This document shows positions 23,646-49,082 of a stretch of 64,000 nt of DNA, piece by piece. Position numbers and translations under genes: made by a program. The stretch comes from a virus. Taxonomy: Duplodnaviria > Caudoviricetes. The first letter of the stretch is position 1; every line of letters begins with the position of its first letter. The stretch spans positions 45,564-109,563 of IMG/VR virus record IMGVR_UViG_3300020379_000218; one strand, given 5' to 3'. Under the pieces are notes generated by a model, which made no database searches, had not been told where the DNA came from, and saw only the letters and a program-made list of their open reading frames with translations.

Positions 23646-24707
23646 ATGAAGATAGCGTTATTGAATGATACTCACTTCGGTGCGAGAAGTGATAGTCCTG
23701 CATTTATCAAATATTTTAACCGGTTTTATGACGAGATATTTTTCCCATACCTAGAAGAACACAAGATAACAACACTTATTCATTTAGGTGATGTTGTTGA
23801 TAGAAGAAAGTTTATTAACTTTAATACAGCACATAACTTTCAAAATAAATTCTGGAAAAGACTATGGGATATGAAAATAGATACTCATATTATACTTGGC
23901 AACCACGATACTTATTATAAGAATACAAACTCTATTAATAGTATGCAACAATTGATTACTACTTTTGATGGTATCAATGAACCATTTATATATGAGAAAC
24001 CAAAGACGGTTGAGTTTGATGGTCTACCTATACTATTCGTTCCTTGGATATGTCCAGAGAATGAAGAAGAAAGTCTATACGAAATAGAAAATTCACAAGC
24101 ACAAATTTGTATGGGTCACCTTGAAGTTAAAGGTTTTGAAATGCACAAAGGACACTTCCAAGAACACGGACTAGAGATAGACTTATTTAAAAGATTTGAC
24201 AAAGTATTATCTGGTCACTATCATAGAAAATCAGATAATGGTACTATCTACTATCTAGGTACACAATACGAAATTACTTGGTCAGATTATCAATGCCCTA
24301 AAGGTTTTCATATATTTGATACAGATACTAGAGAACTTACAAGAGTGCCTAATCCTATTAATATGTTTAAGAAGATAACATATAACGATAAGAAAAATAA
24401 CTATGCAAATATGGATATATCTGAATACGAAGATTGTTTTGTAAAAGTTATAGTAGAAGAAAAACAAGATGTAAATATGTTTGGTGAGTTTATAGACAGA
24501 TTACATAATGAGATACATACACACGAAGTTAATGTCATAGAAGATAGTTATAATATAAATTCAACTGCCAATATTAATATTGTAGACCAAGGTGAAGATA
24601 CTTTAACCTTCTTACAAAATTATATTAATAGTTTAGATACTGAACTAGATAAGCACAAGATGAATACAATAGTTAAAGACTTATATAATGAGGTGCAAGA
24701 TAAGTGA
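23646..24707 (+). CDS. gp47: Recombination nuclease gp47 (Mre11/SbcD-like)
   Basis: DTHFG, HLGD, GNHD, SGHYH. Confidence 0.96.
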   Translation: MKIALLNDTHFGARSDSPAFIKYFNRFYDEIFFPYLEEHKITTLIHLGDVVDRRKFINFNTAHNFQNKFWKRLWDMKIDTHIILGNHDTYYKNTNSINSMQQLITTFDGINEPFIYEKPKTVEFDGLPILFVPWICPENEEESLYEIENSQAQICMGHLEVKGFEMHKGHFQEHGLEIDLFKRFDKVLSGHYHRKSDNGTIYYLGTQYEITWSDYQCPKGFHIFDTDTRELTRVPNPINMFKKITYNDKKNNYANMDISEYEDCFVKVIVEEKQDVNMFGEFIDRLHNEIHTHEVNVIEDSYNINSTANINIVDQGEDTLTFLQNYINSLDTELDKHKMNTIVKDLYNEVQDK

Positions 24708-26419
24708 TAATTTTTCATAATATAACCTGGAAGAATTTTCTTTCAACAGGCAATACACCAATCAGCGTAAATTTAAGAGAAGCACCTACGACATTAATCA
24801 TAGGTAGTAATGGGTCAGGTAAATCAACTTTACTAGACGCATTGTGTTTTGCTCTCTTCAATAAACCTTTTAGAATTATTAAGAAAGACCAGATGGTAAA
24901 TACTATCAACAATGCTGATACACTTGTTGAAGTTTATTTTAGTATAGGTCCTAAAAAGTATAAAGTACGAAGAGGTATTAAACCTAACATATTTGAAATA
25001 TACCAAGACGGCATTTTATTAAATCAGGATGCCTCTTCTATAGATTATCAAAAGTACCTAGAACAAAATATAATGAAACTAAATTACAGGTCATTTTGTC
25101 AAGTTGTAATTTTAGGTTCTTCTTCATATGAACCATTTATGAAGATGAGAGCAAGTTATAGGCGTGATGTTATTGAAGAGATACTTGATATTAAAGTATT
25201 TGCAAGTATGAACTTATTATTAAGAAGTAAACAACAAGACTTAACAAAAGAGATTACTACATTAAGACACCAAGTAGACTTGATTGAAAACAAAGTTGAC
25301 TTACAAGAGAAACATTATAATGAATTACAAGGTAGAGATACAGACGCTATATCTAAAAAGAAAGAAGACATAGAGAAAGCACAAGAACATAAAAGAGATT
25401 ATATGTTGCGTATCAGTAGTCTTAATGAAGAGATTACAAAGAACAAACTAAAACTAGAAGGCACAGAAGAAACTAAAAGTAAATTTCTTCAATTACAGAA
25501 ACTAGAAAGTAAGATTGATACAAACTTAAAGACACATAAAAAGGCACTTAAATTCTTTGAAGAGAATACTAATTGTCCTGTTTGTACACAAGAACTTGAA
25601 CCTGGTTTCAAACAAGAGAAAGTAAACGAAGAGAAGGCTGCTGTAGATAAGTTAAACGAAGGTTATAAAAAACTATTAACTGAAATTACTAATACAGAAG
25701 AGAAGATATTAAATATAGACAAAGTATCTGAAACTATTAGAAGTATAGAAACTAATGTTGCAAAACTAAACACAAGTGTTGATGAACTTAAAAGACATAG
25801 TGATAGAATACAAAACGAGATTGACTTGTTATCTGTAGAGGATGCTTCAGGCCTAAATATAAAAGAAGAGATTGTTAGACTAAAACAAGAGTTAGTCAAA
25901 ACAAAAGAAGATAGAGACAAAGTTATTGATGAGAAAAAATATGTTGATGTATTAAGACAGATTGTAGACGATAGTGGTGCTAGAGCACAGATTATTAAGA
26001 AGTATATACCAGTTATGAATACACTTATTAATCAGTATCTACAATCAATGGACTTCTTTATATCTTTCCATTTAGATGAAGAGTTTAAAGAAACGGTTAA
26101 GAGTAGACATATGGATTCTTTTAACTACAATAATTTTAGTGAAGGTGAAAAGATGAGAATAGACTTGTCATTACTATTCACTTGGAGAAGTATTGCGAAG
26201 ATGAAGAACTCCGTCAATACTAACTTATTAATACTTGATGAGATATTTGATAGTAGTTTAGATGGTCAAGGAACAGATGATTTCTTTAAGATTATCAAAA
26301 CACTTACAAAAGAAAATATCTTTATCATATCGCATAAAGGAGATATAATGTTTGACAAGTTTACAAATATAATTAAATTTGAGAAATACCAAAACTTTAC
26401 GAGGTTAGAAAATGTCTAA
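24704..26419 (+). CDS. gp46: Recombination ATPase gp46 (Rad50/SbcC-like)
   Basis: GSNGSGKST, CPVC zinc hook, FSEGEK, LILDE, ISH. Confidence 0.96.
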   Translation: MIIFHNITWKNFLSTGNTPISVNLREAPTTLIIGSNGSGKSTLLDALCFALFNKPFRIIKKDQMVNTINNADTLVEVYFSIGPKKYKVRRGIKPNIFEIYQDGILLNQDASSIDYQKYLEQNIMKLNYRSFCQVVILGSSSYEPFMKMRASYRRDVIEEILDIKVFASMNLLLRSKQQDLTKEITTLRHQVDLIENKVDLQEKHYNELQGRDTDAISKKKEDIEKAQEHKRDYMLRISSLNEEITKNKLKLEGTEETKSKFLQLQKLESKIDTNLKTHKKALKFFEENTNCPVCTQELEPGFKQEKVNEEKAAVDKLNEGYKKLLTEITNTEEKILNIDKVSETIRSIETNVAKLNTSVDELKRHSDRIQNEIDLLSVEDASGLNIKEEIVRLKQELVKTKEDRDKVIDEKKYVDVLRQIVDDSGARAQIIKKYIPVMNTLINQYLQSMDFFISFHLDEEFKETVKSRHMDSFNYNNFSEGEKMRIDLSLLFTWRSIAKMKNSVNTNLLILDEIFDSSLDGQGTDDFFKIIKTLTKENIFIISHKGDIMFDKFTNIIKFEKYQNFTRLENV

Positions 26420-27302
26420 AGATTTAAAAGATAATCCTACTACTGCTGTTCATACAGGCGACAGACAAAGAATGACGGTTGCTGAAGAAGAAAAATTTAA
26501 AGATGATATAATGAAACAAGCAGAAGAACAGATTAAAGCAGGTGATGTTGAAATTGCAAAAGAAGGTGAGTGGGTTGACCACGCCAACATCAAAGAAAAA
26601 CTAGAAAAGATGAGAGACGAAGATAAGGCAAAAGAAGGTGTCGTAGAGGATATGACAGATAAGAATAAGTCTGTTGAAATCAGAAAAGGCATTGACCCTA
26701 AATCGTTTCAGTACGAATTATTACCACCACAGGATCCTAGAGTTAGACAACCTGTAGCACCTTTCAAAGATGAAATGCTAGAAGAGTATGGTCTAAAAAG
26801 TAGACAAGAACTTGTTGATGGTATGTTTGCTCTTATGCACAAATATGGTGGTATCGGTTTGAGTGCGATACAAATAGGTTTACCATTTAATATGTTTGTT
26901 GCAGGAGACCACGAATCAATAGAAAAGGGGTTAAAGATAGCGGCCTTTAATCCTGTTATTATACAAGCAAGTGAAGAAGAAGTACTAATGAAAGAGGGAT
27001 GCTTGACTTTTCCTTTCTTATTTGTTAGTATTAAAAGACCTCGTAAATGTGTTATGAAATACGAAGATGAGAACAAAGATTTAAAAGAAGCACATTTAGA
27101 TGGAATGATGAGTAGAGTTTGTCAACACGAATACGACCATCAAACAGGTACATTGATGGTACAGAAAGTTAGTAAACTAAAACTAGACTTAGCATATAAA
27201 AAAGCAGAAAAGGAGATGAAGAAGTGGAGACGCTATCAGGAAGCAATCAAGTCCAGTCAGCCAGTGAAAATATCAAACCCTGGCAAAAAGGATTTGAGTT
27301 AA
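26412..27302 (+). CDS. def: Peptide deformylase with long acidic N-terminal extension
   Basis: GIGLSAIQIG, EGCLT, QHEYDH. Confidence 0.92.
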   Translation: MSKDLKDNPTTAVHTGDRQRMTVAEEEKFKDDIMKQAEEQIKAGDVEIAKEGEWVDHANIKEKLEKMRDEDKAKEGVVEDMTDKNKSVEIRKGIDPKSFQYELLPPQDPRVRQPVAPFKDEMLEEYGLKSRQELVDGMFALMHKYGGIGLSAIQIGLPFNMFVAGDHESIEKGLKIAAFNPVIIQASEEEVLMKEGCLTFPFLFVSIKRPRKCVMKYEDENKDLKEAHLDGMMSRVCQHEYDHQTGTLMVQKVSKLKLDLAYKKAEKEMKKWRRYQEAIKSSQPVKISNPGKKDLS

Positions 27303-28426
27303 GTTATTTAAAAGATTTAGAAAAGAGATTTAATTCTTACAACGAATATGCTCAGCACGAAATGAGCAAGTTTAAAAAGAATAATATAGCAGACGCCTTG
27401 TCAAAAGATGAGATACAACTTCTAGGCAAAGGTTTAATACACTTCTCAAAAGTAAAAGTAAAATCAAACATCTTTATGTTCCCAGGTGTACTAATCGGTA
27501 CTAAACTACCTGGCGATATTCATATTAAACATTTAGGTTATACAGAAGAATTTGATAAAAGAAATATTATCACTACATTAATGGAAGACGCTCAATACAC
27601 TAATAACAATGTGTGGTTGTTTATTAACGAAGAGAGTGGACCTGATAAACATATTGCAACAGAAACAGGATTTGAGAAAGTCGGTACGAAGTATAATTCA
27701 GTTGCAGATATTATAGGTGTTTATTTTAGACACGCTAGTAATGTATTAGAAGATAGACAACACCCTAAAGTACCTGTCTATGAGAACTATACATTGAAAC
27801 CTATGAATGTATCATTTAAAGATATTACAACACAACTTGCAAAACAACTACACGAAATGGAAGTTGAGTTTACTAATCACTATTCAAACTACAATAAAGC
27901 AAAGTCTTGGAGTGCAATCTCATTAAGAGGTTATAAACCAGACTATAAGTTTATTACAAAACCTGTAGAAATGAATAAGAAGTGGAAAGAAGAAAACAAA
28001 GATGAACATTTTGAATTACAAGATACAGACTGGAGACAGAAGTTTCCTTTAGTAGAAAAGATATTAGATGTATTTGAAACAGAAATACATAGAGTTAGAT
28101 TTATGAATTTGAAACCAGGTGGTGGAGAATTACAAAGACATACAGACCAAGTAGACCCAGACATAGGAATTGCAGATGGTAGATTAATGAGAATACATAT
28201 ACCTATCAAAACAAATCCAGATGTAGAGTTTACAAGTTGGTCTATATCAGGTTCTAAAGTGATGACTAATATGGAAGAAGGAAGTTGCTGGTACCTAGAT
28301 ATTAGAAAACCACATATGGCAATTAACAATGGTGAAGACTGGAGAACACATTTAGTTATTGATGTAGTTGCTAATGATAAAGTGAGAAGTTTATTTAATG
28401 CTGACGCCCATAGAAAAATACGATAA
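27224..28426 (+). CDS. Fusion of a putative GNAT-like domain and an AspH-type 2OG-Fe(II) hydroxylase
   Basis: C-terminal RVRFMNL, HTD, RIHIPI, KPHMAIN, RTHLVID; N-terminal VWLFINEE...GFEKVG; AGGAG then GTG start. Confidence 0.7.
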   Translation: METLSGSNQVQSASENIKPWQKGFELSYLKDLEKRFNSYNEYAQHEMSKFKKNNIADALSKDEIQLLGKGLIHFSKVKVKSNIFMFPGVLIGTKLPGDIHIKHLGYTEEFDKRNIITTLMEDAQYTNNNVWLFINEESGPDKHIATETGFEKVGTKYNSVADIIGVYFRHASNVLEDRQHPKVPVYENYTLKPMNVSFKDITTQLAKQLHEMEVEFTNHYSNYNKAKSWSAISLRGYKPDYKFITKPVEMNKKWKEENKDEHFELQDTDWRQKFPLVEKILDVFETEIHRVRFMNLKPGGGELQRHTDQVDPDIGIADGRLMRIHIPIKTNPDVEFTSWSISGSKVMTNMEEGSCWYLDIRKPHMAINNGEDWRTHLVIDVVANDKVRSLFNADAHRKIR

Positions 28427-29297
28427 TATATATTACAAACGAGACGATTTGTTTGCACCATATGGAGATGTCAATGGTGGTAAAATGCGACAGACAATTG
28501 CCTTGTTTGAAAAGTATAAAGATAAGATAAGAAATGAACACAATAACGGAGTTATACAATCTGTTTCAGTACATAGTCCTACCGCTAGTGTTATCAGTAG
28601 AGTTGCGAAAGAGTATGGTTTTAAATCTATATTTGCAGTTGGTGGTACTAAACCTGAAACATTACAGAAACGCCATATAATGCACCTTGCACAATACTAT
28701 GGTGGCGAGATAAGAATAGTTGCAGGACACGGTATCAATAGTGTACTTGCAAAGAGAACTAAAGATATTATAGAAAAAGAAAAATATTTCTATACTTCTT
28801 TTGATAAATGGATTATGGAAGAACCTGAATTAATGTTAGAAACAAATGGCGAACAAGTGCAAAATCTACCAGATGAAATAGACAATTTAGTTATGAGTTG
28901 TGGTGTAGGTATTCAGATGTCTGCTGTTATGTATGGATTAAAGAAGTATAATAAGAAAGTAAAAAGAGTTATCGGTGTCGGTGTAGGACCTGATAGAACA
29001 AAGAATATAAGAAGTTATTTTGGATTAGAACAGAATGATTATCCTTTTGAATTTCACACACCAAAAACAAGTTATAGTACTCCTCTGAAAACTACAATAA
29101 CAAATCCTAACTACACGGATTCAGAAGAGTACTATCCATCAGAAAAATCATTTATGTTAGATGACTTATACGAAGCAAAAGCACATAAATGGATGTGTGA
29201 GAATATAAACATTTACGAAGGTACAAATGTCTTCTGGTGTGTCGGTAGAAGATTAAATCAAAACGAAGTACACGATATAACTGGAGGTATACAATGA
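28398..29297 (+). CDS. Fold-type II PLP enzyme (ACC deaminase/D-cysteine desulfhydrase-like)
   Basis: LTPIE, YYKRDDL, NGGKMR (PLP Lys), CGVGIQ phosphate loop, LDDLYEAKA. Confidence 0.8.
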   Translation: MLTPIEKYDNIYYKRDDLFAPYGDVNGGKMRQTIALFEKYKDKIRNEHNNGVIQSVSVHSPTASVISRVAKEYGFKSIFAVGGTKPETLQKRHIMHLAQYYGGEIRIVAGHGINSVLAKRTKDIIEKEKYFYTSFDKWIMEEPELMLETNGEQVQNLPDEIDNLVMSCGVGIQMSAVMYGLKKYNKKVKRVIGVGVGPDRTKNIRSYFGLEQNDYPFEFHTPKTSYSTPLKTTITNPNYTDSEEYYPSEKSFMLDDLYEAKAHKWMCENINIYEGTNVFWCVGRRLNQNEVHDITGGIQ

Positions 29298-29833
29298 AAT
29301 ACGATATGACAACTTTCTTTAAAGATGGTTTCTATACTGGTGATGTAGATATAAATGTACAACTATTTGATGATATAAAGTTTCCTAATATAGACTACAA
29401 TCCTGAAGACTTAAAACTACCTGATAATGTAAAACAAGAGATTAAGAAAGTACAAGAACAACTAGAAGAAGTTATATCAGAAACATATCCTAAATTTGAA
29501 CTTACAGAAGAACCTGGTTTATGGAACGGAGTAACCAAAGAGAATAATGAATTTCACAATGACTTTGTTGCAGGAGATAAATTCAATTCAAACATATTAG
29601 TATACCTAGATGAAGGTAACGATATGAATGAAAACTATATTGAGATTGCAGGTGAAGACATTTTAGATAAAGATGGCACACCATATGGTGTAAGTAAGTG
29701 TAGAATATTCTGTAGACCAGGACAATTTGTCTGGTTAAATCAATCACCTCAATTTGAACATAGAGCAAACAACGGAAGTGGGAATAGAAGATTGATACAC
29801 TTTGCATACTATATACCGGAGATTAAAAAATGA
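29294..29833 (+). CDS. Putative 2OG-Fe(II) oxygenase
   Basis: FHND, ILVYL, FEHRA, NRRLIHF. Confidence 0.6.
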   Translation: MKYDMTTFFKDGFYTGDVDINVQLFDDIKFPNIDYNPEDLKLPDNVKQEIKKVQEQLEEVISETYPKFELTEEPGLWNGVTKENNEFHNDFVAGDKFNSNILVYLDEGNDMNENYIEIAGEDILDKDGTPYGVSKCRIFCRPGQFVWLNQSPQFEHRANNGSGNRRLIHFAYYIPEIKK

Positions 29834-30525
29834 AAGATGTAATTAATAAGTTTCATCACGGTGACGCTTTTGATATATTTCCTAAAGTACCAGATAGAAG
29901 TATTGACTTAACATTTACAAGTCTACCTGATATATCACAAGGTCCGTGGGGCAAAGACATAGAACAATACCAAGAGTTTCAAAATAGAAGTTGCGACCAG
30001 ATGGCAAGAATTACGAAAGATGAAGGCTTCGTAGTTATATCGCAAACAGATAGAAAGATTAACGGAGAGATATTACCTAATCATATAACATATTACAATG
30101 CAATGTTAAGAAATGGTTTTGCATTGAAAGACTATAAGATTATGGTAAGAAATCATCCTGTTGATAAAAGAGATATGTATTACTTCAACTATCAACACAC
30201 ACTTGTATTTACTAAAAAAGGTACAATCAAAAGAAGTGGTGATTGGTTAAAGAACATATTAGTATATGATACAAAGAGATTAGGAAATGTAAAAGGTCCT
30301 TTTAATCTCTATGTATGGAACGATAACTTTATTAAACTTGTGGTTGATTATCTATCAAAAGAGAATGAAATAGTATTTGACCCATTTGCAGGTAGTGGAA
30401 TAGTACCTTGGATTGCAAAAGAAATGAGAAGACGATATATAGGTATTGAACTAGATAAAGAGGTTTTTGATAAATCTTACTTTAATCGTTTAGACCTGCT
30501 TGACAAGTTTGGGAAAGTAGTATAG
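29830..30525 (+). CDS. Beta-class amino-DNA-methyltransferase-like protein with altered catalytic motif
   Basis: HGDAF, DLTFTSLPD (in place of TSPPY/DPPY), VFDPFAGSG, YIGIELD. Confidence 0.75.
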   Translation: MKDVINKFHHGDAFDIFPKVPDRSIDLTFTSLPDISQGPWGKDIEQYQEFQNRSCDQMARITKDEGFVVISQTDRKINGEILPNHITYYNAMLRNGFALKDYKIMVRNHPVDKRDMYYFNYQHTLVFTKKGTIKRSGDWLKNILVYDTKRLGNVKGPFNLYVWNDNFIKLVVDYLSKENEIVFDPFAGSGIVPWIAKEMRRRYIGIELDKEVFDKSYFNRLDLLDKFGKVV

Positions 30526-30528
30526 AAT
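30500..30528 (+). promoter_or_regulatory. Sigma70-type promoter within the MTase 3' end
   Basis: TTGACA-17-TAGAAT. Confidence 0.65.
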
Positions 30529-30535
30529 GTCTATT

Positions 30536-30691
30536 ATGAATAAAAAAGAAAAAATATACGAAAGGAATCCGAACACAGGTGTTATTCGTTGGCGTTATGT
30601 AGGCGAGAGTCCTGATAAGTTTGGGTGGCCGAACTATGGCAGAATATTGCGAGAAGGAAAAAAGAAGAAGAACACTAATAACATTAAGTAA
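30536..30691 (+). CDS. Small basic protein (51 aa, not in ORF track)
   Basis: MNKKEKIYERNPNTGVIRWRYVGESPDKFGWPNYGRIL...; fills the gap after the promoter, probably leaderless. Confidence 0.55.
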   Translation: MNKKEKIYERNPNTGVIRWRYVGESPDKFGWPNYGRILREGKKKKNTNNIK

Positions 30692-30692
30692 G

Positions 30693-30842
30693 ATGAAAAT
30701 GAAAACACAACACAAAGTAGATAGAACAGATTATCAGGATGTAGCAGATTGTATAAGAAGTGACCAAGTACCTGCTAGTGCTATTGCAGAATACTTTACT
30801 GATAAAAGATTTTACAAGTGGTACAAAAAGAAATACTTATGA
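30693..30842 (+). CDS. Small hypothetical protein
   Basis: MKMKTQHKVDRTDYQDVADCIRSDQVP...; abuts both neighbours. Confidence 0.55.
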   Translation: MKMKTQHKVDRTDYQDVADCIRSDQVPASAIAEYFTDKRFYKWYKKKYL

Positions 30843-31123
30843 AAAAAGAGAGCATAGAAGACTTTTTAAAAAGAGGTGGTAAAGTAGAGAAGTTAAGACC
30901 TGGGTTTCCATTAGATGTCGGAAGTTTAGACAAGTCAAAGAAACCTAGATTTAATAAACAAGAAGTTGAGAGTGGCAAAGATAAAGGCACAGCGCCTATG
31001 CCAGACTTAACAAGTATCAGAAAACAGGAAGCATACAATGGCAACACGGTTACATATTCAGATAGTGTGCCTGTAAATGAACCTGGTAAAGGTACTGGTA
31101 AATCAGATATGAGTGGTAAATAA
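30839..31123 (+). CDS. Hypothetical protein with a SutA-like FLxRGGKV motif
   Basis: MKKESIEDFLKRGGKVEKL; ATGA overlap with upstream gene. Confidence 0.55.
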   Translation: MKKESIEDFLKRGGKVEKLRPGFPLDVGSLDKSKKPRFNKQEVESGKDKGTAPMPDLTSIRKQEAYNGNTVTYSDSVPVNEPGKGTGKSDMSGK

Positions 31124-32308
31124 ATGAAGAAATTAACAGATGTAAAAGGTAGTGCTAGTTTAGAAGATATAATGTCTGCCCAAGGCGTAGAAGTCAAAGG
31201 CGAAGAGAACATTACTAGTAAAGGAAATCTAAAAGGTTTTACAGAAGATGAAACTCAACTAGAAGAGAACATAAACGAAGTTTATAACTTCTGGCAAGAA
31301 AGAGGTTTTCCTTACTACAATACAGACCCAACTTGGCGAAAAGAAAAGATGGCGAAACTACAGGCTGTTAATTGTAAAGATTTATTAACTAAAGATAATG
31401 TAATTAAACCACACCAAGAAGGTCTATCACTTGCTTGGTCTTATATGCCACATAGTTTTGGTATCAGATGTGGTAAGATGAGAACTCCTATGGAGATATA
31501 TGAAGATGAAGAACACTTTAAGAAAGGTATCAAAAAACTATTAACTGGTTCTTTCTTTGGTAAGTATTCAGTAAGTGATTTAAAACCTGCCTCAAAGACA
31601 AAGAATGTATTAGAAATGTTTAAAGAAGGTATCACAACATACAGGTCAGAGGAATCAAAACATAAAGCAGAAAGTGTAATGAGAAGTCTATTAAGAAGAT
31701 ATACAGGAACTCAATGTGTATCTAATTTCAGACCTACAGCAGCTGCTTGTTTATATCAGAATTTTATGAAACCAGGCGAACTAGTCTGGGATATGTCAAT
31801 GGGTTATGGTGGTCGTATACTAGGTGCGATTATATCAGATGTTAATTATGTAGGTACTGACCCAGCAACATTAACATTTAAAGGACTATGTGAGATTAAA
31901 GAAGACCACGCTAGACCTAATAGACAATACTTCTTAAATAAGAAAGGTAGTGAAGTCTTTATACCTAAAGAAAATAGTTTAGACTTTGCCTTTACAAGTC
32001 CACCTTATTTCAATTGGGAACAATATTCAGATGACGCTGAACAATCATTTAAAAACTTTAGTACTAATGAAGACTGGAATAATGGCTTCTTACGAAAGAC
32101 TATACAGAATGTTTTTACTGGTTTGAAACCAGGTAAGTATATGGGTCTTAATGTAGCGAACATTAAATCACATAAAACCTTTGAAGATGATACCGTGCGA
32201 ATCGCCGTTGAGGAAGGCTTTGAACATACTGATACATACAAGTTGCAGTTGTCTTCACAAGAGAGTGGCGCTAAATACGAACCAGTGTTTATATTCAGAA
32301 AACCCTAA
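31124..32308 (+). CDS. DNA amino-methyltransferase (SPPY type)
   Basis: SNFRPTAA, WDMSMGYGGR, GTDP, FTSPPYF. Confidence 0.85.
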   Translation: MKKLTDVKGSASLEDIMSAQGVEVKGEENITSKGNLKGFTEDETQLEENINEVYNFWQERGFPYYNTDPTWRKEKMAKLQAVNCKDLLTKDNVIKPHQEGLSLAWSYMPHSFGIRCGKMRTPMEIYEDEEHFKKGIKKLLTGSFFGKYSVSDLKPASKTKNVLEMFKEGITTYRSEESKHKAESVMRSLLRRYTGTQCVSNFRPTAAACLYQNFMKPGELVWDMSMGYGGRILGAIISDVNYVGTDPATLTFKGLCEIKEDHARPNRQYFLNKKGSEVFIPKENSLDFAFTSPPYFNWEQYSDDAEQSFKNFSTNEDWNNGFLRKTIQNVFTGLKPGKYMGLNVANIKSHKTFEDDTVRIAVEEGFEHTDTYKLQLSSQESGAKYEPVFIFRKP

Positions 32309-32465: not shown

Positions 32466-32494
32466 TTGACATATGTATTGGTCTATGGTATTAT
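32466..32494 (+). promoter_or_regulatory. Strong early promoter with A-tract UP element
   Basis: GC-TTGACA-17-TATTAT; near-repeat at 34901. Confidence 0.8.
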
Positions 32495-43756: not shown

Positions 43757-44121
43757 TGAGTGATAGTGTCCAAACAAAGGATACTATAACAATTCATTTC
43801 ATTAGTAAAGACGGAAATAAACAAGAAGTTATAGTACCACCAGGTTATACAATTATGGAGGCAGCAAGGACTTTTGCTGAACCATCAATTGATGAAATAC
43901 CAGGCGATTGTGGTGGGTGTACTGCTTGTGGAACTTGCCATATTAATATTAAAGAGGACATTGACAAAGTGGGTCGGGTAGAGTATAATAGTTTAGAAAA
44001 TGAGATATTAGAAACAAATATGGAATATGATAGAATGTATTCCAGATTAGGTTGTAATGTTATGTTAGAGAAAAAACATAATGGTTTAAAAATATATTTG
44101 AGAAGTATGGAGTCCGTATAG
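43756..44121 (+). CDS. fdx: [2Fe-2S] ferredoxin, adrenodoxin/ISC type
   Basis: CGGCTACGTCH and SRLGC. Confidence 0.9.
   Translation: MSDSVQTKDTITIHFISKDGNKQEVIVPPGYTIMEAARTFAEPSIDEIPGDCGGCTACGTCHINIKEDIDKVGRVEYNSLENEILETNMEYDRMYSRLGCNVMLEKKHNGLKIYLRSMESV
43961..43989 (+). promoter_or_regulatory. Consensus sigma70 promoter inside the ferredoxin gene, facing gp43
   Basis: TTGACA-17-TATAAT. Confidence 0.7.
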
Positions 44122-46613
44122 TGAATTTTTATAAAGATGTAATTGAACATAGAGGTAAGTTATTAGTCCGTGGTATACTAGACGGCAAAGAATTTAAAGA
44201 GAAGGTAGCATTTAGACCAACTCTATATGCACAAACACAAGAGAATACAAATCATAGAACTTTACAAGGTAACAATCTAAAACCTATTACCTTTGATAGT
44301 ATCAGGTCAGCAAGAGATTTCAGAAGAAACTATGCAACTTCTAATAGTCCGTTGTATGGTAATGATAGATGGCACTTTCAATATATCAGTAAAGAATATC
44401 CAGAGAATATTGAGTTTGATAAGAACTTAATTAAAATCTTTACTATTGATATTGAGACAACTGCTGATGGTGGTTTTCCTGATGTAGAAAATCCGACAGA
44501 AGAGATACTATGTTTGACTATTAAAAATCAATCTAACAAACAAATTATTACTTGGGGTACAAGACCATATCTTGCAAAACAAGAAAATGTAACCTATATA
44601 GAATGTAAATCAGAAAAACAATTACTGATGGAGTTTTTTAAATTCTGGATGAAGAATTATCCTGATGTTATTACAGGTTGGAATACTAAATTTTTTGATA
44701 TACCATATCTATGTAATAGAACTAAAAGACTTGTAGGTGACAAAGTTATTAATAAGTTATCGCCTTGGGGTTTGATTGAAGAAGAGAAACTAACCGTAAG
44801 AGGTAGACAACAAACTATATTTAAGATTATGGGTATATCTAATTTAGATTACCTAGACTTATATGTAAAATTTATTCCGACTAGACAAGAAAGTTATAAA
44901 CTTGATTATATCGCAAAGGTAGAATTAGGTAGTGATGGTAAAGATAATAACCCATACGATACTTTTAGAGAATGGTATACGAATGACTTTCAATCTTTTG
45001 TTGATTACAATATCAAAGATGTTGAACTCGTTGACCAACTAGAAGATAAGTTAAGATTGATTGAACTTATCTTAACAATGGCCTATGAGGCAAAGATTAA
45101 TTATACAGATGTATTTTCAGAAGTTAGACTTTGGGATACATTGATTTACAATCATCTATTAAAAGAGAATATACATATCCCACCTCGTACTGATAATGTT
45201 AAAGAAGAAAAATATGTCGGTGCATATGTTAAACCACCACAAGTCGGTCAACATAAATGGATTGTATCTTTTGATATTAACTCACTATATCCTCACTTGA
45301 TTATGCAGTATAATATTAGTCCTGAAAAGATGATTGGTGTTAAACCTAATGGTATATCTGTAGACAAGTTATTGAAACACGCTACACCTCTTACACATTT
45401 ACAAACACAAGGTGCAACTATCACACCTAATGGTGCAATGTTTAAAACAGATAGTCAAGGTTTCTTACCGAAGATTATGGAAAGTATGTACAATGATAGA
45501 GTGCATTACAAACAATTAGAATTTAAAGCAAAACAAGAATATCAAAAAACAAAAGACCCAATCTATGAAAAAGAAATATCTCGTTGTCATAATATTCAAT
45601 GGGCGAAAAAGATTTCTTTGAATAGTGCCTATGGTGCAATCGGTAATCAGTATTTTAGATTTTACAATGTCAATCAAGCGTCAGCGATTACAACTGCTGG
45701 GCAGTTTATTATTCAGTATGTTGAACAAAAAGTAAATGAATTGATGAATGATATACTACAGACAAAAGGTAAGAAAGATTATATTGTTGCGTCTGATACA
45801 GATTCAATTTACCTTTGTTTAGATAGATTAGTAGAAAAGGTATGTAAAGATAAAACAAAAGAACAGAAGTTAAACTTTGTTGATAAGGTTGCAAAACAAA
45901 AGATAGAACCATTTATTGAAAAATGTTTTGAAGAAGTATCTAGTTATACAAATGCCTTTCAACAGAAGATGGTTATGAAACGAGAAGTTATCGCAGACAA
46001 AGGTATCTGGACTGCCAAGAAAAGATATATGTTGAATGTGTTAGACGAAGAAGGTTTTAGATATGAAGAACCTAAACTAAAGATTATGGGTATTGAGGCA
46101 GTAAAATCTTCAACACCAGAAGTCTGTAGAAAAGGTATTAAAGAAGCAATCAGAATTATTATGAACAAAGATGAAGACGCATTACATAATTATATTTCAA
46201 ACTTTAAAGAAGAGTATTTGAAATATGAACCTGAACAGATTGCGTTTCCTAGAAGTTGTAATAATTTAAGAAAGTATTTTAGTCCTAGTGATATATTCAT
46301 TAAAGGCACACCTATACATATTAAAGGTAGTCTGATATATAACTGGCACTTAAAAAATCAAAACCTAGACCAGAAGTATCCTTTGATACAAGAAGGTGAT
46401 AAAATTAAATTTATATTGTTGAAAGAACCTAATCCTTTCAAGTTTAATGTATGTGCTTATCTATCTACATTACCTAGAGAGTTTAATCTGAAAGACTATA
46501 TAGATTACGAGGTTCAATTTGAAAAGACTTTCCTTGACCCAATGAGATTTATACTTGGTGCGATAGGTTGGAATGCAGAACCTCAAGCAAGTCTGGAGGC
46601 TTTCTTCGGATAA
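44121..46613 (+). CDS. gp43: DNA polymerase gp43 (family B)
   Basis: DIET exonuclease motif, SFDINSLYP, KISLNSAYG, SDTDS; no intein seen. Confidence 0.98.
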   Translation: MNFYKDVIEHRGKLLVRGILDGKEFKEKVAFRPTLYAQTQENTNHRTLQGNNLKPITFDSIRSARDFRRNYATSNSPLYGNDRWHFQYISKEYPENIEFDKNLIKIFTIDIETTADGGFPDVENPTEEILCLTIKNQSNKQIITWGTRPYLAKQENVTYIECKSEKQLLMEFFKFWMKNYPDVITGWNTKFFDIPYLCNRTKRLVGDKVINKLSPWGLIEEEKLTVRGRQQTIFKIMGISNLDYLDLYVKFIPTRQESYKLDYIAKVELGSDGKDNNPYDTFREWYTNDFQSFVDYNIKDVELVDQLEDKLRLIELILTMAYEAKINYTDVFSEVRLWDTLIYNHLLKENIHIPPRTDNVKEEKYVGAYVKPPQVGQHKWIVSFDINSLYPHLIMQYNISPEKMIGVKPNGISVDKLLKHATPLTHLQTQGATITPNGAMFKTDSQGFLPKIMESMYNDRVHYKQLEFKAKQEYQKTKDPIYEKEISRCHNIQWAKKISLNSAYGAIGNQYFRFYNVNQASAITTAGQFIIQYVEQKVNELMNDILQTKGKKDYIVASDTDSIYLCLDRLVEKVCKDKTKEQKLNFVDKVAKQKIEPFIEKCFEEVSSYTNAFQQKMVMKREVIADKGIWTAKKRYMLNVLDEEGFRYEEPKLKIMGIEAVKSSTPEVCRKGIKEAIRIIMNKDEDALHNYISNFKEEYLKYEPEQIAFPRSCNNLRKYFSPSDIFIKGTPIHIKGSLIYNWHLKNQNLDQKYPLIQEGDKIKFILLKEPNPFKFNVCAYLSTLPREFNLKDYIDYEVQFEKTFLDPMRFILGAIGWNAEPQASLEAFFG

Positions 46614-47773: not shown

Positions 47774-47869
47774 ATGGCGATATTTTATAGTATATTACTC
47801 TTAACAATTATATTTTTAATACCAATAAGTTTACTAATAATGTGGAATGATGAAGACCCTAAACCTTAA
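47774..47869 (+). CDS. Possible 31-aa membrane peptide overlapping a promoter
   Basis: AGAGG RBS; MAIFYSILLLTIIFLIPISLLIMWNDEDPKP; TTGACA(47768)-17-TATATT overlaps. Confidence 0.4.
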   Translation: MAIFYSILLLTIIFLIPISLLIMWNDEDPKP

Positions 47870-49082
47870 AGATTACGCAGATGAAAATGGTTTGCCTATT
47901 ATGGACACTATCCAGTTTGATAGATGGACAGAAGAACTAGGTAAAGAAAAATTTAGAGAATTACTAGCAGAATATATTGCTACTGAAAGACCAAAGTTTC
48001 CTCTCAAACAAATATCATATGAAGATATGAGAAAAAGTATTATTGACTTATCAAAGTTTGATACTTCAAAGATATGTACGCCTAAAGAACAGATTGAAAA
48101 GAAAGTATTTGAGAAGTATGATGATTACGAATATGGTTTTGATAAGTATGGTCTAGGATTGATTGACGCTCCTAGTACATATAATATATCATCTAATTAT
48201 TTTCATCAACATTTAAGATTAAATTGTAGTAGTTATGGTTTCAAAGCACCTATAGATGTATGGCAAAATGGTAATGCAAAAGATGTATGGCGTTGTCTAG
48301 GTCCTATATGGCGTGGTATTAATAGTGAAAGACATTTAAAAGAAGGTACTTATATTAGTGCATTTAGATTAGGTACATATATTGCAACACAATTTAAACC
48401 TGTTGTTGCGAAAACTTTATATGATATGACAAATGCAAGAACGGTATTAGATACCTCTTGTGGTTGGGGTGATAGACTTGCAGGTTTCTTTTCTAGTAGT
48501 GCAGAAGAATATTATGGTTGCGACCCAAACCCTAACACATATAAACAATATATGAAACAGATTGAAGAGTATAGTAAATTCTTTCCTAATAAAAAAGTTA
48601 AGATATATAATTGTGGTGCAGAAGATTTACCTTATGATGAATTACCAGATATAGATTGTGCCTTTACAAGTCCACCATACTTTAGTACTGAACAATATAA
48701 TAAAGGTGGTGATAAAGAAGAAAATCAATCGTGGTTTAAATTCAACGAATACGAGAAGTGGAGAGACGACTTCTATTTACCTGTTGCAGAAAAGACTATG
48801 AGTAAATCAAAGTTTATGTTAGTCAACATTATGGATCCAAAGATTAAGAATGTTAGATATAGGTCAAGTGATGAATTGATAAATAGTCATAGAGAAAAGT
48901 TTTTAGGTCAAATTGGTATGGTTATTATGCAAAGACCTCAAGGTAATGCTAAGTTTAAAACTAAAGAAGAACTGAACGAATTTATGGCAATGAAATATAT
49001 TGAGAATGTTTGGTGTTTCGGTCCTAAAGATTATGATTTCTTCTCTTCTAGTAGAAAAGGTACATTAGAAAACTTTTTATGA
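47847..49082 (+). CDS. DNA amino-methyltransferase (SPPY type)
   Basis: TQFKPVVAK, LDTSCGWGDRL, GCDPN, FTSPPYF. Confidence 0.85.
   Translation: MMKTLNLKDYADENGLPIMDTIQFDRWTEELGKEKFRELLAEYIATERPKFPLKQISYEDMRKSIIDLSKFDTSKICTPKEQIEKKVFEKYDDYEYGFDKYGLGLIDAPSTYNISSNYFHQHLRLNCSSYGFKAPIDVWQNGNAKDVWRCLGPIWRGINSERHLKEGTYISAFRLGTYIATQFKPVVAKTLYDMTNARTVLDTSCGWGDRLAGFFSSSAEEYYGCDPNPNTYKQYMKQIEEYSKFFPNKKVKIYNCGAEDLPYDELPDIDCAFTSPPYFSTEQYNKGGDKEENQSWFKFNEYEKWRDDFYLPVAEKTMSKSKFMLVNIMDPKIKNVRYRSSDELINSHREKFLGQIGMVIMQRPQGNAKFKTKEELNEFMAMKYIENVWCFGPKDYDFFSSSRKGTLENFL

What the first reader, a model, noticed from the sequence alone, without database searches (positions are those of the whole stretch)
27224..30525. 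Four-gene GNAT/oxygenase/PLP/odd-methyltransferase cluster: possible DNA hypermodification pathway
Seen: overlapping genes for a GNAT-like plus AspH-type hydroxylase fusion, an ACC-deaminase-like PLP enzyme, a second 2OG oxygenase and a DNA-MTase-fold protein with intact DPFAGSG but SLPD in place of SPPY, inside the replication region. Known: phage base hypermodification uses 2OG oxygenases, PLP enzymes, GNAT proteins (Mu Mom) and SAM enzymes. Inference: a pathway building an amino-acid-derived base adduct or a small metabolite. No donor-nucleotide enzyme is visible in this window.
Basis: inference. Interest (0 to 1): 0.72.

Follow-up and report, generated by a model that had tools for sequence, protein, structure and literature searches.

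The report
Candidate DNA-hypermodification tailoring cluster, marine phage
An uncultured ocean phage related to SAR11 phages carries a tight set of genes (an acetyltransferase-fold/hydroxylase fusion, a vitamin-B6 enzyme of the only family known to trim amino acids hanging on DNA, and two DNA-methylase-like proteins) that travel together in about a hundred phage contigs and probably build an undescribed chemical decoration on the phage's DNA, though no chemistry has been measured.

Summary
The four overlapping genes are real and under purifying selection (dN/dS 0.06-0.11). P1 is a GNAT-fold domain fused to an AspH/Cpz10-type 2OG oxygenase. P2 is a homologue of Salmonella phage ViI gp226, the proven PLP decarboxylase of serine-decorated thymine in DNA, and keeps its Schiff-base lysine. 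P4 is a beta-class DNA-methylase fold with motif I intact and motif IV changed to (S/G)xPD in all 75 homologues examined. P3 is only weakly supported as a 2OG oxygenase and is dispensable in relatives.

The functional unit extends beyond the given coordinates. An SPPY methylase-like gene (31124-32308) is the most constant partner. It is adjacent to the PLP enzyme in marine phages and in mycobacteriophage Vincenzo, and fused to it in one metagenomic protein. In mycobacteriophage LilMcDreamy the P1 homologue sits beside an amino acid:DNA transferase.

None of the known thymidine-pathway core genes (hmU source, kinase, transferase) occur in this 109.5 kb contig, which is about 59% complete.

Best reading (about 0.5): a methylase-centred, post-replicative DNA base hypermodification with an amino-acid-like side chain that is trimmed, hydroxylated and methylated. 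The chemistry is unproven. This scan has already flagged the same module on other genomes.

The parts
26412..27302 (+). Peptide deformylase gene (296 aa), the upstream neighbour, overlapped by P1 and probably co-transcribed with it. This is context, not a core part.
   Evidence: Pfam Pep_deformylase E 5.8e-35. PDF-P1 adjacency occurs only in some clades.
27224..28426 (+). P1: two-domain protein, GNAT fold plus AspH/Cpz10-type Fe(II)/2OG oxygenase.
   Evidence: (AF2 pLDDT 87.9, pTM 0.84). There are 749 homologues in metagenomes.
27293..27748 (+). P1 residues 24-175: GNAT-fold domain without a recognisable acetyl-CoA pyrophosphate loop.
   Evidence: VIA Z 12.2 / rmsd 3.2 / 143 aligned to 2pc1; all top hits are GNATs. 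The beta4-alpha3 loop is variable and lacks Gly.
27821..28399 (+). P1 residues about 200-392: 2OG oxygenase domain. H306-x-D308, H364 and R374 are invariant.
   Evidence: Pfam PF05118. Best PDB sequence hit is Cpz10, 7v4f. Foldseek hits: 4p7w at 4e-9, 7v4f, AspH. Invariant columns.
28398..29297 (+). P2: fold-type II PLP enzyme of the ViI gp226 family (phrog_3650). K29 is the putative Schiff-base lysine.
   Evidence: blastp to gp226 28.6% identity, E 5e-26. Full-length alignment. K29 aligns with gp226 K92. gp226 matches phrog_3650 at E 2.5e-241.
29294..29833 (+). P3: small protein, possibly a 2OG oxygenase (H87-x-D89, H155, R165). It is a variable accessory.
   Evidence: It is absent or replaced in most related loci.
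29830..30525 (+). P4: beta-class amino-methyltransferase fold, with motif I DPFAGSG and motif IV S-L-P-D.
   Evidence: (S/G)xPD in 75 of 75 homologues. 29 representative clusters at E<=1e-30 among 1.84 billion proteins. SPPD variants also occur in more distant small PF01555 proteins.
30500..30528 (+). Sigma-70-like promoter (TTGACA-17-TAGAAT) at the end of P4. It starts a second transcription unit.
   Evidence: 11 of 12 matches. This is a consensus match only.
30527..31123 (+). Small ORFs (54 aa, a conserved 73-aa ORF at 30621-30842, and 101 aa) between P4 and the SPPY methylase-like gene. They are conserved only in the closest clade and their function is unknown.
31124..32308 (+). P394: SPPY methyltransferase-fold protein (motif I DMSMGYGGR, motif IV FTSPPYF). 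It is the most constant partner of P1, the PLP enzyme and P4.
   Evidence: Fused to a P2-type enzyme in P0121. Related to the MTase half of Vincenzo gp1 (hhalign 94.3%).

Best explanation
The cluster is the tailoring part of a post-replicative DNA base hypermodification system that is built around DNA-methylase-fold proteins rather than around the known 5-hmdU kinase and amino acid:DNA transferase pair.

Inferred order of events:
1. The SPPY methylase-fold protein (31124-32308) recognises and flips a base in phage DNA and installs a group carrying a primary amine and carboxylate.
2. P2, a gp226-type PLP enzyme, forms a Schiff base with that amine and trims the group, most likely by decarboxylation.
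3. The P1 oxygenase domain hydroxylates the side chain, while its GNAT-fold domain binds or acylates it.
4. P4, whose base-stacking aromatic residue is replaced by an invariant Asp, methylates the resulting alkylamine rather than a base amino group.

Shown: the folds, the conserved catalytic residues, the homologies and the gene linkage. Inferred: DNA as the substrate, the order of steps and every chemical step.
For: 1. P2 is closer to ViI gp226 than to any cellular family: phrog_3650 E 3e-35 against PALP 2e-8 and CysK 1e-4. It keeps the lysine aligned with gp226 K92. gp226 and M6 gp52 are proven decarboxylases of amino-acid-thymine conjugates in DNA (PMC8989533).

2. Linkage within 5 kb. Around P1 (n=23): methylase-like 20, PLP 16, P4 13. 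Around P4 (n=29): 22, 17 and 12 for methylase-like, PLP and P1. Around the PLP enzyme (n=27): 23, 18 and 16 for methylase-like, P4 and P1. This holds in at least six different gene orders and positions.

3. Loci that lack P2 carry a second, distantly related PLP enzyme after P1 (phrog_7093; hhalign 96.8% to the P2/gp226 family).

4. P0121 fuses a long SPPY methylase-like protein to a P2-type enzyme.

5. Mycobacteriophage Vincenzo has ParB plus a P394-like methylase (gp1) followed by a phrog_3650 PLP enzyme (gp2).

6. LilMcDreamy has ParB, gp2, a Pfam ADDT protein (E 2.7e-12) and a P1-type oxygenase (hhalign 99.9%) next to terminase. This is the architecture described for thymine-dioxygenase pathways (PMC13229309).

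7. An Acidobacteriota prophage carries methylase-like, P1-like and GNAT genes near a family A DNA polymerase.

8. One close relative has an MBD4-type DNA glycosylase (E 2.7e-15, catalytic Asp kept) inserted inside the cluster.

9. The cluster lies in the replication/recombination module. The Vibrio phage homologue of P394 sits among nucleotide-metabolism genes.

10. Chemical precedent: the best PDB sequence hit of the P1 oxygenase is Cpz10. Cpz10 beta-hydroxylates an amino-acid-type side chain on a uridine nucleoside whose alternative fate is decarboxylation by Mur23, in a scaffold that also bears N-methyl groups (PMC9814697).
Against: - No modified nucleoside has been measured for any carrier.
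- No hmU source, 5-HMUDK, ADDT, TET/JBP or TGT occurs in the 109.5 kb contig. The MAG that holds a 141.7 kb relative contig has no ADDT or ThyA-type enzyme either. Nothing in the locus is therefore known to attach an amino acid.
- P2 is only 28.6% identical to gp226, and fold-type II PLP enzymes do many reactions.
- The genome shows extreme avoidance of short palindromes: ACGT, CATG, TCGA and CGCG are all 0, and GATC is 28 against 303 expected. This argues against a blanket protective modification. The GATCC-only pattern is also present in Mosig, which lacks the cluster, and is absent from other cluster carriers.
- A Planctomycete P1 homologue sits among P450, hydrolase and efflux genes with no methylase.
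- The methylase-like family also occurs without a PLP partner: loci L013, L024 and L025, and the paralogue at 47847-49082. An earlier scan note says this holds for most family members (e1-5631944, not re-counted here).
- The fusion rests on one predicted protein whose DNA I could not inspect.
- The co-occurrence sample was retrieved with these same proteins and contains related contigs.
Confidence: 0.5

Rival explanations
1. Small-molecule or nucleotide-pool pathway. The PLP enzyme, the oxygenase/GNAT fusion and P4 make or alter a free amino acid, polyamine, SAM derivative or nucleoside (an auxiliary metabolic function). The neighbouring SPPY protein is an ordinary orphan DNA methylase that merely shares the island.
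For: The best fold relatives of the P1 oxygenase act on free amino acids or nucleoside antibiotics: proline hydroxylases 4p7w and 1e5r, and Cpz10. Fold-type II PLP enzymes are mostly metabolic. The Planctomycete P1 homologue lies in a P450/hydrolase context. Marine T4-like phages are rich in metabolic genes and 2OG oxygenases. No base-activating enzyme is present.
Against: A predicted fusion joins the PLP enzyme to the methylase-like protein. The same pair is adjacent in an actinophage, where the methylase carries a ParB domain. P2 is far closer to the DNA-acting gp226 family than to metabolic enzymes. P4 and P394 belong to families that act on polymer DNA. An MBD4-like glycosylase is inserted in a relative's cluster.
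Confidence: 0.18
2. Protein or RNA modification aimed at the translation apparatus or a virion protein. In this reading the GNAT domain is an N-terminal or side-chain acetyltransferase, the oxygenase is a prolyl/aspartyl hydroxylase, and the (S)PPY methylases are PrmC/RsmD-like enzymes. All would work alongside the adjacent peptide deformylase.
For: PDF is directly upstream and overlapped by P1 in several clades. The top Foldseek GNAT hits are N-terminal and ribosomal-protein acetyltransferases. AspH and the EF-Tu prolyl hydroxylase are among the oxygenase fold hits. (D/N/S)PPY enzymes also methylate Gln and guanine-N2 (own knowledge). The same genome has another protein-maturation cassette according to scan note e1-5884887, which was not checked here.
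Against: PDF adjacency is lineage-specific: many carriers have gp46-P1 or methylase-P1 instead. GNAT fold hits are generic, and the CoA loop is missing. P2's only characterised relatives act on DNA. The ParB fusion, the ADDT neighbour and the MBD4-like insert all point to DNA. No conserved candidate substrate ORF accompanies the module across clades.
Confidence: 0.12
3. Ordinary thymidine hypermodification. The cluster holds only tailoring enzymes, and the canonical core (dUMP hydroxymethylase or T-dioxygenase, 5-hmdU DNA kinase, amino acid:DNA transferase) lies in the unsequenced ~41% of the genome.
For: The contig is about 59% complete. P2 belongs to the gp226 family. The LilMcDreamy P1 homologue is next to an ADDT gene. 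PLP decarboxylase and acetyltransferase tailoring of amino-acid-thymine adducts is established (PMC8989533).
Against: No ADDT, HMUD2, TET_JBP or ThyA hit in 109.5 kb here. ADDT is absent, and ThyA too in G001, from the other carrier records tested, including the MAG holding a 141.7 kb contig. In known systems these genes usually cluster with the tailoring genes (PMC8989533). Here the constant partner is a methylase-fold protein instead, once fused to the PLP enzyme.
Confidence: 0.1

Closest known systems
ViI gp226 and M6 gp52, PLP-dependent decarboxylases of amino-acid:thymine conjugates in DNA (Lee et al., PMC8989533, PMC5889632)
   Same: P2 is a full-length homologue in the same PHROG (3650), with the same NG(G/S)K lysine and C-terminal YEGK...W.VG motifs.
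   Different: Only 27-29% identical. P2 is shorter (299 against 424 aa). It is not accompanied by a 5-hmdU kinase or amino acid:DNA transferase. Its partner is a methylase-fold protein.
Thymidine hypermodification gene clusters (5-HMUDK + AADT core with rSAM, PLP, FAD-lyase and acetyltransferase tailoring; ViI, M6, PaMx11, SP10, PhiW-14)
   Same: Combinatorial phage clusters near replication genes that mix a PLP enzyme with an acetyltransferase-fold protein and further tailoring enzymes. The P1 homologue in LilMcDreamy sits beside an ADDT gene.
   Different: No hmU source, kinase or transferase was detected here. A 2OG hydroxylase and two methylase-fold proteins are not part of the described pathways.
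Caprazamycin/muraymycin side-chain tailoring: Cpz10 (aKG beta-hydroxylase, PDB 7v4f) and Mur23 (decarboxylase) (PMC9814697)
   Same: Cpz10 is the best PDB sequence hit of the P1 oxygenase. The enzyme logic matches: hydroxylation or decarboxylation of an amino-acid-type side chain on a nucleoside, plus N-methyl groups.
   Different: That pathway is small-molecule antibiotic biosynthesis in Streptomyces. The similarity is weak (E 0.003 over 59 residues; about 15% identity by fold), and Mur23 is not shown to be related to P2.
Beta-class N6-adenine/N4-cytosine DNA methyltransferases (M.MboIIA 1g60, CcrM 6pbd, DpnA 5hek; Pfam PF01555)
   Same: P4 shares the fold, the motif order (IV before I) and the FxGxG SAM loop. 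P394 has a canonical SPPY and motif I.
   Different: P4 lacks the aromatic residue of (D/N/S)PP(Y/F/W/H) and has an invariant Asp there. P394 has motif I before motif IV and a ~190-aa N-terminal region of unknown fold.
ParB-associated thymine dioxygenase (5mYOX) pathways near terminase (PMC13229309)
   Same: The LilMcDreamy and Vincenzo cassettes holding the P1 and P2 homologues have the ParB-first, terminase-adjacent layout with an AADT.
   Different: The marine cluster has no ParB and no TET/JBP hit. The P1 oxygenase is in PF05118, not TET/JBP.

Membership tests
gp226-type PLP enzymes (phrog_3650) | Significant full-length homology to ViI gp226 | tested here: met
   blastp E 5e-26 at 28.6% identity. 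phrog_3650 E 3.4e-35. gp226 itself matches phrog_3650 at E 2.5e-241.
gp226-type PLP enzymes (phrog_3650) | Schiff-base lysine (gp226 K92) | tested here: met
   P2 K29 aligns with K92 and is invariant in 13 sequences.
gp226-type PLP enzymes (phrog_3650) | Decarboxylation of an amino acid attached to a base in DNA | not testable with these tools
   Needs an enzyme assay on modified DNA.
Thymidine hypermodification pathway (Lee et al.) | Source of 5-hmdU (ThyA-like hydroxymethylase or TET/JBP dioxygenase) | tested here: inconclusive
   No PF00303 or PF12851 hit in the 109.5 kb contig, but the contig is about 59% complete.
Thymidine hypermodification pathway (Lee et al.) | 5-hmdU DNA kinase | tested here: inconclusive
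   No PF18747 hit and no tblastn hit with ViI gp243. Only one of the kinase families was tested, and the genome is incomplete.
Thymidine hypermodification pathway (Lee et al.) | Amino acid:DNA transferase (Pfam ADDT / aGPT-Pplase) | tested here: inconclusive
   No PF18724 hit in the own contig or in 5 carrier records, including the MAG with the 141.7 kb contig. The one weak hit lies antisense to a 1102-aa ORF and is spurious.
PF05118 Asp/Asn beta-hydroxylase-type Fe(II)/2OG oxygenases (P1 C-domain) | Pfam score above the gathering cut-off | tested here: met
   47.2 bits against a cut-off of 22.6.
PF05118 Asp/Asn beta-hydroxylase-type Fe(II)/2OG oxygenases (P1 C-domain) | HxD...H iron triad and 2OG-binding Arg | tested here: met
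   H306, D308, H364 and R374 are invariant in 14 sequences. H364 and R374 align with Cpz10.
GNAT acetyltransferases (P1 N-domain) | GNAT fold | tested here: met
   VIA Z 12.2, rmsd 3.2, 143 aligned. The top 50 hits are all GNATs.
GNAT acetyltransferases (P1 N-domain) | Acetyl-CoA pyrophosphate loop Q/R-x-x-G-x-G/A after beta4 | tested here: not met
   The loop between strand 99-105 and helix 109-121 has no Gly and is indel-rich across homologues. No Pfam GNAT hit.
Beta-class amino DNA methyltransferases, PF01555 (P4) | SAM-binding motif I FxGxG | tested here: met
   DPFAGSG is conserved and aligns with motif I of M.MboIIA and CcrM.
Beta-class amino DNA methyltransferases, PF01555 (P4) | Catalytic motif IV (D/N/S)PP(Y/F/W/H) | tested here: not met
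   (S/G)xPD in 75 of 75 homologues, with no aromatic at position 4. It aligns with DPPY of M.MboIIA and CcrM.
Amino methyltransferases with SPPY (P394, 31124-32308) | Motif I and motif IV both present | tested here: met
   D-x-S-x-G-(Y/W)-G-(G/D)-R and FTSPPYF are invariant in 12 sequences. The Pfam hit is below the cut-off (17.3 against 26.7 bits).
2OG-Fe(II) oxygenases (P3) | Profile match to a 2OG oxygenase family | tested here: not met
   No Pfam hit at E<=5 for 6 homologues. hhalign probability 2.6%.
2OG-Fe(II) oxygenases (P3) | HxD...H...R pattern | tested here: inconclusive
   Present in P3 and close homologues but lost in the divergent copies in L034 and L035. Atlas look-alikes partly carry PF13640.

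The most novel reading that the evidence does not exclude
The SPPY methylase-fold protein does not methylate. Instead it transfers the 3-amino-3-carboxypropyl end of SAM (or an aminopropyl group after PLP-dependent processing) onto an exocyclic nitrogen of a base in duplex DNA. The gp226-type PLP enzyme then decarboxylates this DNA-borne amino acid, the P1 oxygenase beta-hydroxylates it, and P4 N-methylates the new alkylamine. This would be a route to amino-acid-type DNA hypermodification that needs neither 5-hmdU nor a kinase or transferase, and possibly the first such adduct on a purine or cytosine nitrogen.
Probability: 0.2. Interest if true: 0.9.

Novelty: new variant of a known kind. Interest (0 to 1): 0.68.

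Why it matters
Known amino-acid-derived DNA hypermodifications all start from 5-hydroxymethyluracil and use a kinase plus an amino acid:DNA transferase. This module keeps the tailoring logic (PLP trimming and an acyltransferase fold) and adds a hydroxylase. It replaces the known core with methylase-fold proteins.

The module is widespread in abundant, uncultured marine T4-like phages: 749 P1 homologues at the 90% cluster level. It has cultured counterparts in mycobacteriophages Vincenzo and LilMcDreamy, so the prediction can be tested directly on existing phage stocks.

If it holds, it would add a new entry route to DNA hypermodification and a new activity for the DNA methylase fold. It would also supply new enzymes for site-specific DNA functionalisation, and would affect how marine viral DNA is sequenced and restricted.

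Tried and rejected
- blastn of the cluster against 50,697 phage records gave no match. None of P1, P4, P394 or its paralogue is present in cultured pelagiphages.
- TGT, ThyA, ADDT, HMUD2 and TET_JBP searches of the own contig were all empty.
- A weak ADDT hit in the 126 kb contig carrying a lone P2 homologue was rejected. It has 4 in-frame TAG codons and lies antisense to a 1102-aa ORF.
- I tested whether the striking GATC-only-as-GATCC/GGATC pattern (28 of 28) marks this cluster's product, and rejected the idea. Mosig, which has no cluster, shows the same pattern. Distant cluster carriers have 20-37 GATC per 10 kb with only partial context bias.
- P3 was compared with a neighbouring bona fide 2OG oxygenase and with Pfam, with no support.
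- Longer forms of P4 show no informative fusions, only generic methylases.
- PDB sequence searches with P394 or its profile found nothing significant.
- The P0121 fusion DNA was sought in viral and metagenome contigs and not found.
- Iyer et al. 2013 (NAR 41:7635) is not held in the library and is cited from memory only.
- LilMcDreamy gp2 is annotated as queuine tRNA-ribosyltransferase (phrog_6059). It has no Pfam TGT hit and only a weak Tet_JBP hit (E 0.002), so its identity is left open.

Full report
**Setting.** The window is part of a 109,563-bp IMG/VR viral contig estimated to be 59% complete. It is a T4-like pelagimyophage. Its gp46 homologue is 59.7% identical to that of Pelagibacter phage Mosig, and the order gp47-gp46-PDF ... 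peptidase-AAA-S21-clamp-clamp loader-polymerase is syntenic. The four genes sit in the replication/recombination module. Mosig fills the same slot with other genes (2OG oxygenases, PDF, a DUF4338 protein, MazG). Neither blastn nor tblastn finds P1, P4 or the downstream methylase-like gene in any cultured pelagiphage. GC content is uniform across the region.

**Observation.** P1 also overlaps the end of the peptide deformylase gene by 79 nt. Against relatives of 83-97% protein identity, dN/dS is 0.056 (P2), 0.081 (P3) and 0.09-0.11 (P4), so these are working genes. No strong sigma-70-like site lies inside the cluster. A near-consensus site (TTGACA-17-TAGAAT) sits at 30500-30528, at the very end of P4. 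PDF-P1-P2-P3-P4 therefore look like one transcription unit, and the small ORFs plus the next methylase-like gene look like a second.

**P1 (400 aa).**
- Pfam places residues 203-382 in Asp_Arg_Hydrox (E 2.9e-12).
- An AlphaFold model built on 14 homologues is confident (pLDDT 87.9, pTM 0.84), which suggests the two domains form one rigid unit.
- The C-domain matches L-proline cis-4-hydroxylase (Foldseek E 4e-9), the caprazamycin beta-hydroxylase Cpz10 (7v4f), proline 3-hydroxylase and human AspH. Cpz10 is also the best sequence hit in the PDB.
- H306-x-D308, H364 and R374 are invariant.
- The N-domain, modelled alone (pLDDT 86), is a GNAT fold. The best match is 2pc1 (VIA Z 12.2, rmsd 3.2 A, 143 residues), and every one of the top 50 chains is a GNAT.
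The loop where GNATs bind the pyrophosphate of acetyl-CoA has no glycine and varies with indels, so acetyl-CoA use is doubtful.
- The family is large: 749 homologues at the 90% cluster level, on contigs up to 173 kb.

**P2 (299 aa).**
- The generic PALP model scores just below its cut-off (34.2 against 35 bits).
- Cellular families match only weakly (CysK and ACC-deaminase-related at E about 1e-4).
- By contrast, PHROG 3650 matches at E 3.4e-35.
- I fetched Salmonella phage ViI and confirmed that its gp226 (YP_004327553) is the archetype of that PHROG (E 2.5e-241).
- P2 aligns with gp226 at 28.6% identity (E 5e-26) over its whole length.
- P2 K29 falls on gp226 K92, the lysine Lee et al. proposed for the internal aldimine.
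- gp226 and M6 gp52 were shown with pure enzymes to decarboxylate O-serinyl- and C-alpha-glycinyl-thymidine in DNA (PMC8989533).
- 'ACC-deaminase-like' is thus correct only at superfamily level. The informative relationship is to the only PLP family known to work on DNA-borne amino acids.

**P3 (179 aa).** This is the weak member.
- It has no Pfam hit, even at E 5, for six homologues.
- It matches only an unknown PHROG.
- Profile comparison with a true 2OG-FeII_Oxy_3 neighbour failed.
- An HxD...H...R pattern is present, but divergent copies have lost the first His.
- A language-model search puts P3 near viral clusters of which 22-100% of members carry PF13640.
- P3 is missing or replaced in most related loci.
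- I treat it as a possible small oxygenase and not as core.

**P4 (231 aa).**
- PF01555 matches at E 1.6e-19.
- A family profile aligns the N-terminus with motif IV of M.MboIIA and CcrM, and the C-terminus with their motif I.
- Motif I (DPF-A/S-G-x-G) is conserved.
- Motif IV is (S/G)-x-P-D in all 75 homologues of 41-100% identity, never with an aromatic residue in the fourth position.
- A search of 1.84 billion representatives finds only 29 clusters at E<=1e-30, so this is a compact family.
- More distant small PF01555 proteins also carry SPPD followed by Phe or Tyr. The Asp variant therefore defines a wider, unstudied clade rather than decay of a single gene.
- Since the aromatic residue stacks on the flipped base in amino-methyltransferases (established for the family), a different acceptor is likely. 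An alkylamine bound by the Asp is my inference.

**The unit is larger than the finding.** The gene at 31124-32308 (394 aa) has an intact motif I and FTSPPYF. Its homologues come in three forms: 334-394 aa, 518-537 aa, and a 411-442 aa form that includes a paralogue at 47847-49082. These are the most constant partners of the other genes.

| Anchor gene (at least 2.5 kb on both sides) | n | Methylase-like within 5 kb | PLP enzyme | P4 | P1 |
|---|---|---|---|---|---|
| P1 | 23 | 20 | 16 | 13 | - |
| P4 | 29 | 22 | 17 | - | 12 |
| PLP enzyme | 27 | 23 | - | 18 | 16 |

The sample is biased, because the loci were fetched with these same proteins and include related contigs. Even so, the association survives at least six different arrangements:
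- gp46-PDF-P1-P2-P3-P4-...-MT
- clamp loader-MT-2OG-P1-P2-P4
- MT-P2-P4
- MT-P1-P4
- gp46-P4-P2-...-MT
- gp46-P1-PLP'-...-MT

In the last type, the gene after P1 is a 250-265-aa protein of PHROG 7093. Profile comparison shows it to be a distant member of the same P2/gp226 superfamily (96.8%, E 2e-10, full length). The P1 + PLP pairing is therefore more general than BLAST suggests.

**Independent links.**
1. A metagenomic protein, P0121 (829 aa), is a fusion. It consists of a long SPPY methylase-like protein (35% identity, E 1e-99 to the 531-aa form), a Lys-rich linker and a P2-type enzyme (45% identity to P2). It is known from a single contig, and I could not see its DNA.
2. In mycobacteriophage Vincenzo, gene 1 is a ParB domain fused to a methylase related to this family (hhalign 94.3%). 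Gene 2 is a PHROG 3650 enzyme (E 2.7e-106).
3. In mycobacteriophage LilMcDreamy, the gene before the P1-type oxygenase (hhalign 99.9%, E 6e-31) is a Pfam ADDT amino acid:DNA transferase (E 2.7e-12, above the cut-off). The set ParB-gp2-ADDT-oxygenase abuts terminase. This is the layout reported for ParB-dependent thymine dioxygenase pathways (PMC13229309).
4. An Acidobacteriota prophage has methylase-like, P1-like and GNAT genes next to a family A polymerase and a serine recombinase.
5. One close relative has an MBD4-type glycosylase domain (E 2.7e-15, catalytic Asp retained) and a DUF4385 protein inserted between the P3-like gene and P4.

As a counter-example, a Planctomycete P1 homologue lies among P450, hydrolase and efflux genes.

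**What is missing.** The contig has no ThyA-type hydroxymethylase, TET/JBP, HMUD2 kinase, ADDT or TGT. ViI gp243 and gp247 find nothing by tblastn. ADDT was absent from all five other carrier records tested. Of these, only the MAG holding a 141.7 kb T4-like contig with P1-PLP'-MT was also searched for ThyA, which it lacks. All of these records may be incomplete.

**Restriction-site test.** Prompted by an earlier scan note, I counted short palindromes. ACGT, CATG, TCGA and CGCG are absent (expected 51-267). GATC occurs 28 times (expected 303), always as GATCC or GGATC (chance about 0.31 per site). This is a real and striking signal, but it does not track this cluster. Mosig, without the cluster, shows the same GATC context. 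Distant carriers of P1-P2-P4 have ordinary GATC densities. The strong avoidance also argues against a modification that protects all sites.

**Mechanism.** The facts to explain are:
- a PLP enzyme of a DNA-acting family is tied, once by fusion, to a DNA-methylase-fold protein;
- no known amino-acid-attaching enzyme is present;
- there is an oxygenase whose nearest relatives hydroxylate amino-acid side chains, including one on a nucleoside;
- there is a second methylase fold with an Asp where the base-stacking aromatic should be.

A PLP enzyme needs a primary amine, and a methyl group offers none. The most economical scheme is that the SPPY protein installs an amine- and carboxylate-bearing group on a flipped base. 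The aminocarboxypropyl part of SAM is the obvious candidate, since methylase-fold enzymes such as TYW2 do this on RNA (own knowledge). P2 then decarboxylates it, P1 hydroxylates it, and P4 methylates the resulting amine.

The caprazamycin/muraymycin pathways show the same tailoring logic on a uridine nucleoside. Cpz10 beta-hydroxylates an amino-acid-type side chain that Mur23 can alternatively decarboxylate (PMC9814697).

Only the folds, residues and linkage are shown. Substrate, order and chemistry are inferred. I give the general DNA-hypermodification reading 0.5 and the specific SAM-aminocarboxypropyl version 0.2. The methylase family also occurs without a PLP partner, so plain methylation with optional helpers remains possible.

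**Rivals.**
- A metabolite pathway sharing an island with an orphan methylase (0.18).
- Protein or RNA modification linked to the adjacent deformylase (0.12).
- Canonical thymidine hypermodification with the core genes off-contig (0.10).

**Novelty.** The enzyme families are known. Phage clusters combining PLP, acyltransferase and other tailoring enzymes are known. The methylase-centred architecture, the GNAT-oxygenase fusion and the (S/G)xPD methylase fold are not described in the papers I could search. This scan has already reported the same module on other genomes with a similar reading (e1-5667518, e1-5667520, e1-5631944). I reached mine before seeing those notes. I class it as a new variant of a known kind.

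**Limits.**
- The identity of LilMcDreamy gp2 (annotated TGT, weak Tet_JBP) is unresolved.

Noticed in passing
whole contig (window 1-64000 and the 45.5 kb upstream): Extreme palindrome avoidance. ACGT, CATG, TCGA and CGCG occur 0 times (expected 170, 267, 129 and 51). GATC occurs 28 times (expected 303), always as GATCC or GGATC. 29 of 34 GCGC sites are also flanked by G or C in the same way. The same GATC context is seen in Pelagibacter phage Mosig. It is not linked to the cluster studied here.
   Followed up: partly
window 26412-27302: The peptide deformylase is 296 aa, with a ~100-aa N-terminal extension ahead of the Pfam domain (residues 107-257). Mosig's is 184 aa. Its 3' end is overlapped by P1 for 79 nt.
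   Followed up: no
window 47847-49082: A second SPPY methyltransferase-fold gene (411 aa), paralogous to 31124-32308, lies two small ORFs downstream of an 830-aa ORF (44121-46613, not annotated here). Homologues occur in other marine phage contigs but not in cultured pelagiphages. It has no PLP partner nearby.
   Followed up: partly
window 30621-30842: A 73-aa ORF (TTG start, probably an internal ATG) is highly conserved among the closest relatives, more so than the overlapping 54-aa ORF. No family match.
   Followed up: no
L002 (Mycobacterium phage LilMcDreamy) 855-1787: Gene 2 is annotated queuine tRNA-ribosyltransferase (phrog_6059). It gives no Pfam TGT hit and only a weak Tet_JBP hit (E 0.002). 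It lies between a ParB gene and an ADDT gene, where a ParB-dependent thymine dioxygenase would be expected. The annotation may be wrong.
   Followed up: partly
L034 9754-10597: An MBD4-type HhH-GPD glycosylase domain protein (E 2.7e-15 to human MBD4, catalytic Asp kept) and a DUF4385 protein are inserted inside the cluster of a close relative. The MBD4-like gene was seen in one contig only.
   Followed up: partly
L016 9115-11496: In the P1 / PLP' / long-methylase type of locus, an NAD-dependent epimerase/dehydratase (E 2e-63) and a PAPS-reductase-domain protein (E 7e-42) flank the PLP' gene, between P1 and the long methylase.
   Followed up: no
L124 (Acidobacteriota MAG contig, 457.6 kb): A prophage edge with serine recombinase, family A DNA polymerase, a split SPPY methylase-like gene (two ORFs, possible frameshift), a P1-like gene and a separate GNAT. 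Chromosomal sulfatase and phosphodiesterase genes follow.
   Followed up: partly
P0122 (565 aa, ENA): A P2-type PLP domain (54% identity) is followed by polysaccharide-export (Poly_export, SLBB) domains in one predicted protein. This may be a gene-call or assembly artefact.
   Followed up: no
window 32466-32494 and 24196-24224: Two further near-consensus sigma-70-like promoters (11 of 12 matches). One lies directly upstream of the 778-aa peptidase gene.
   Followed up: no
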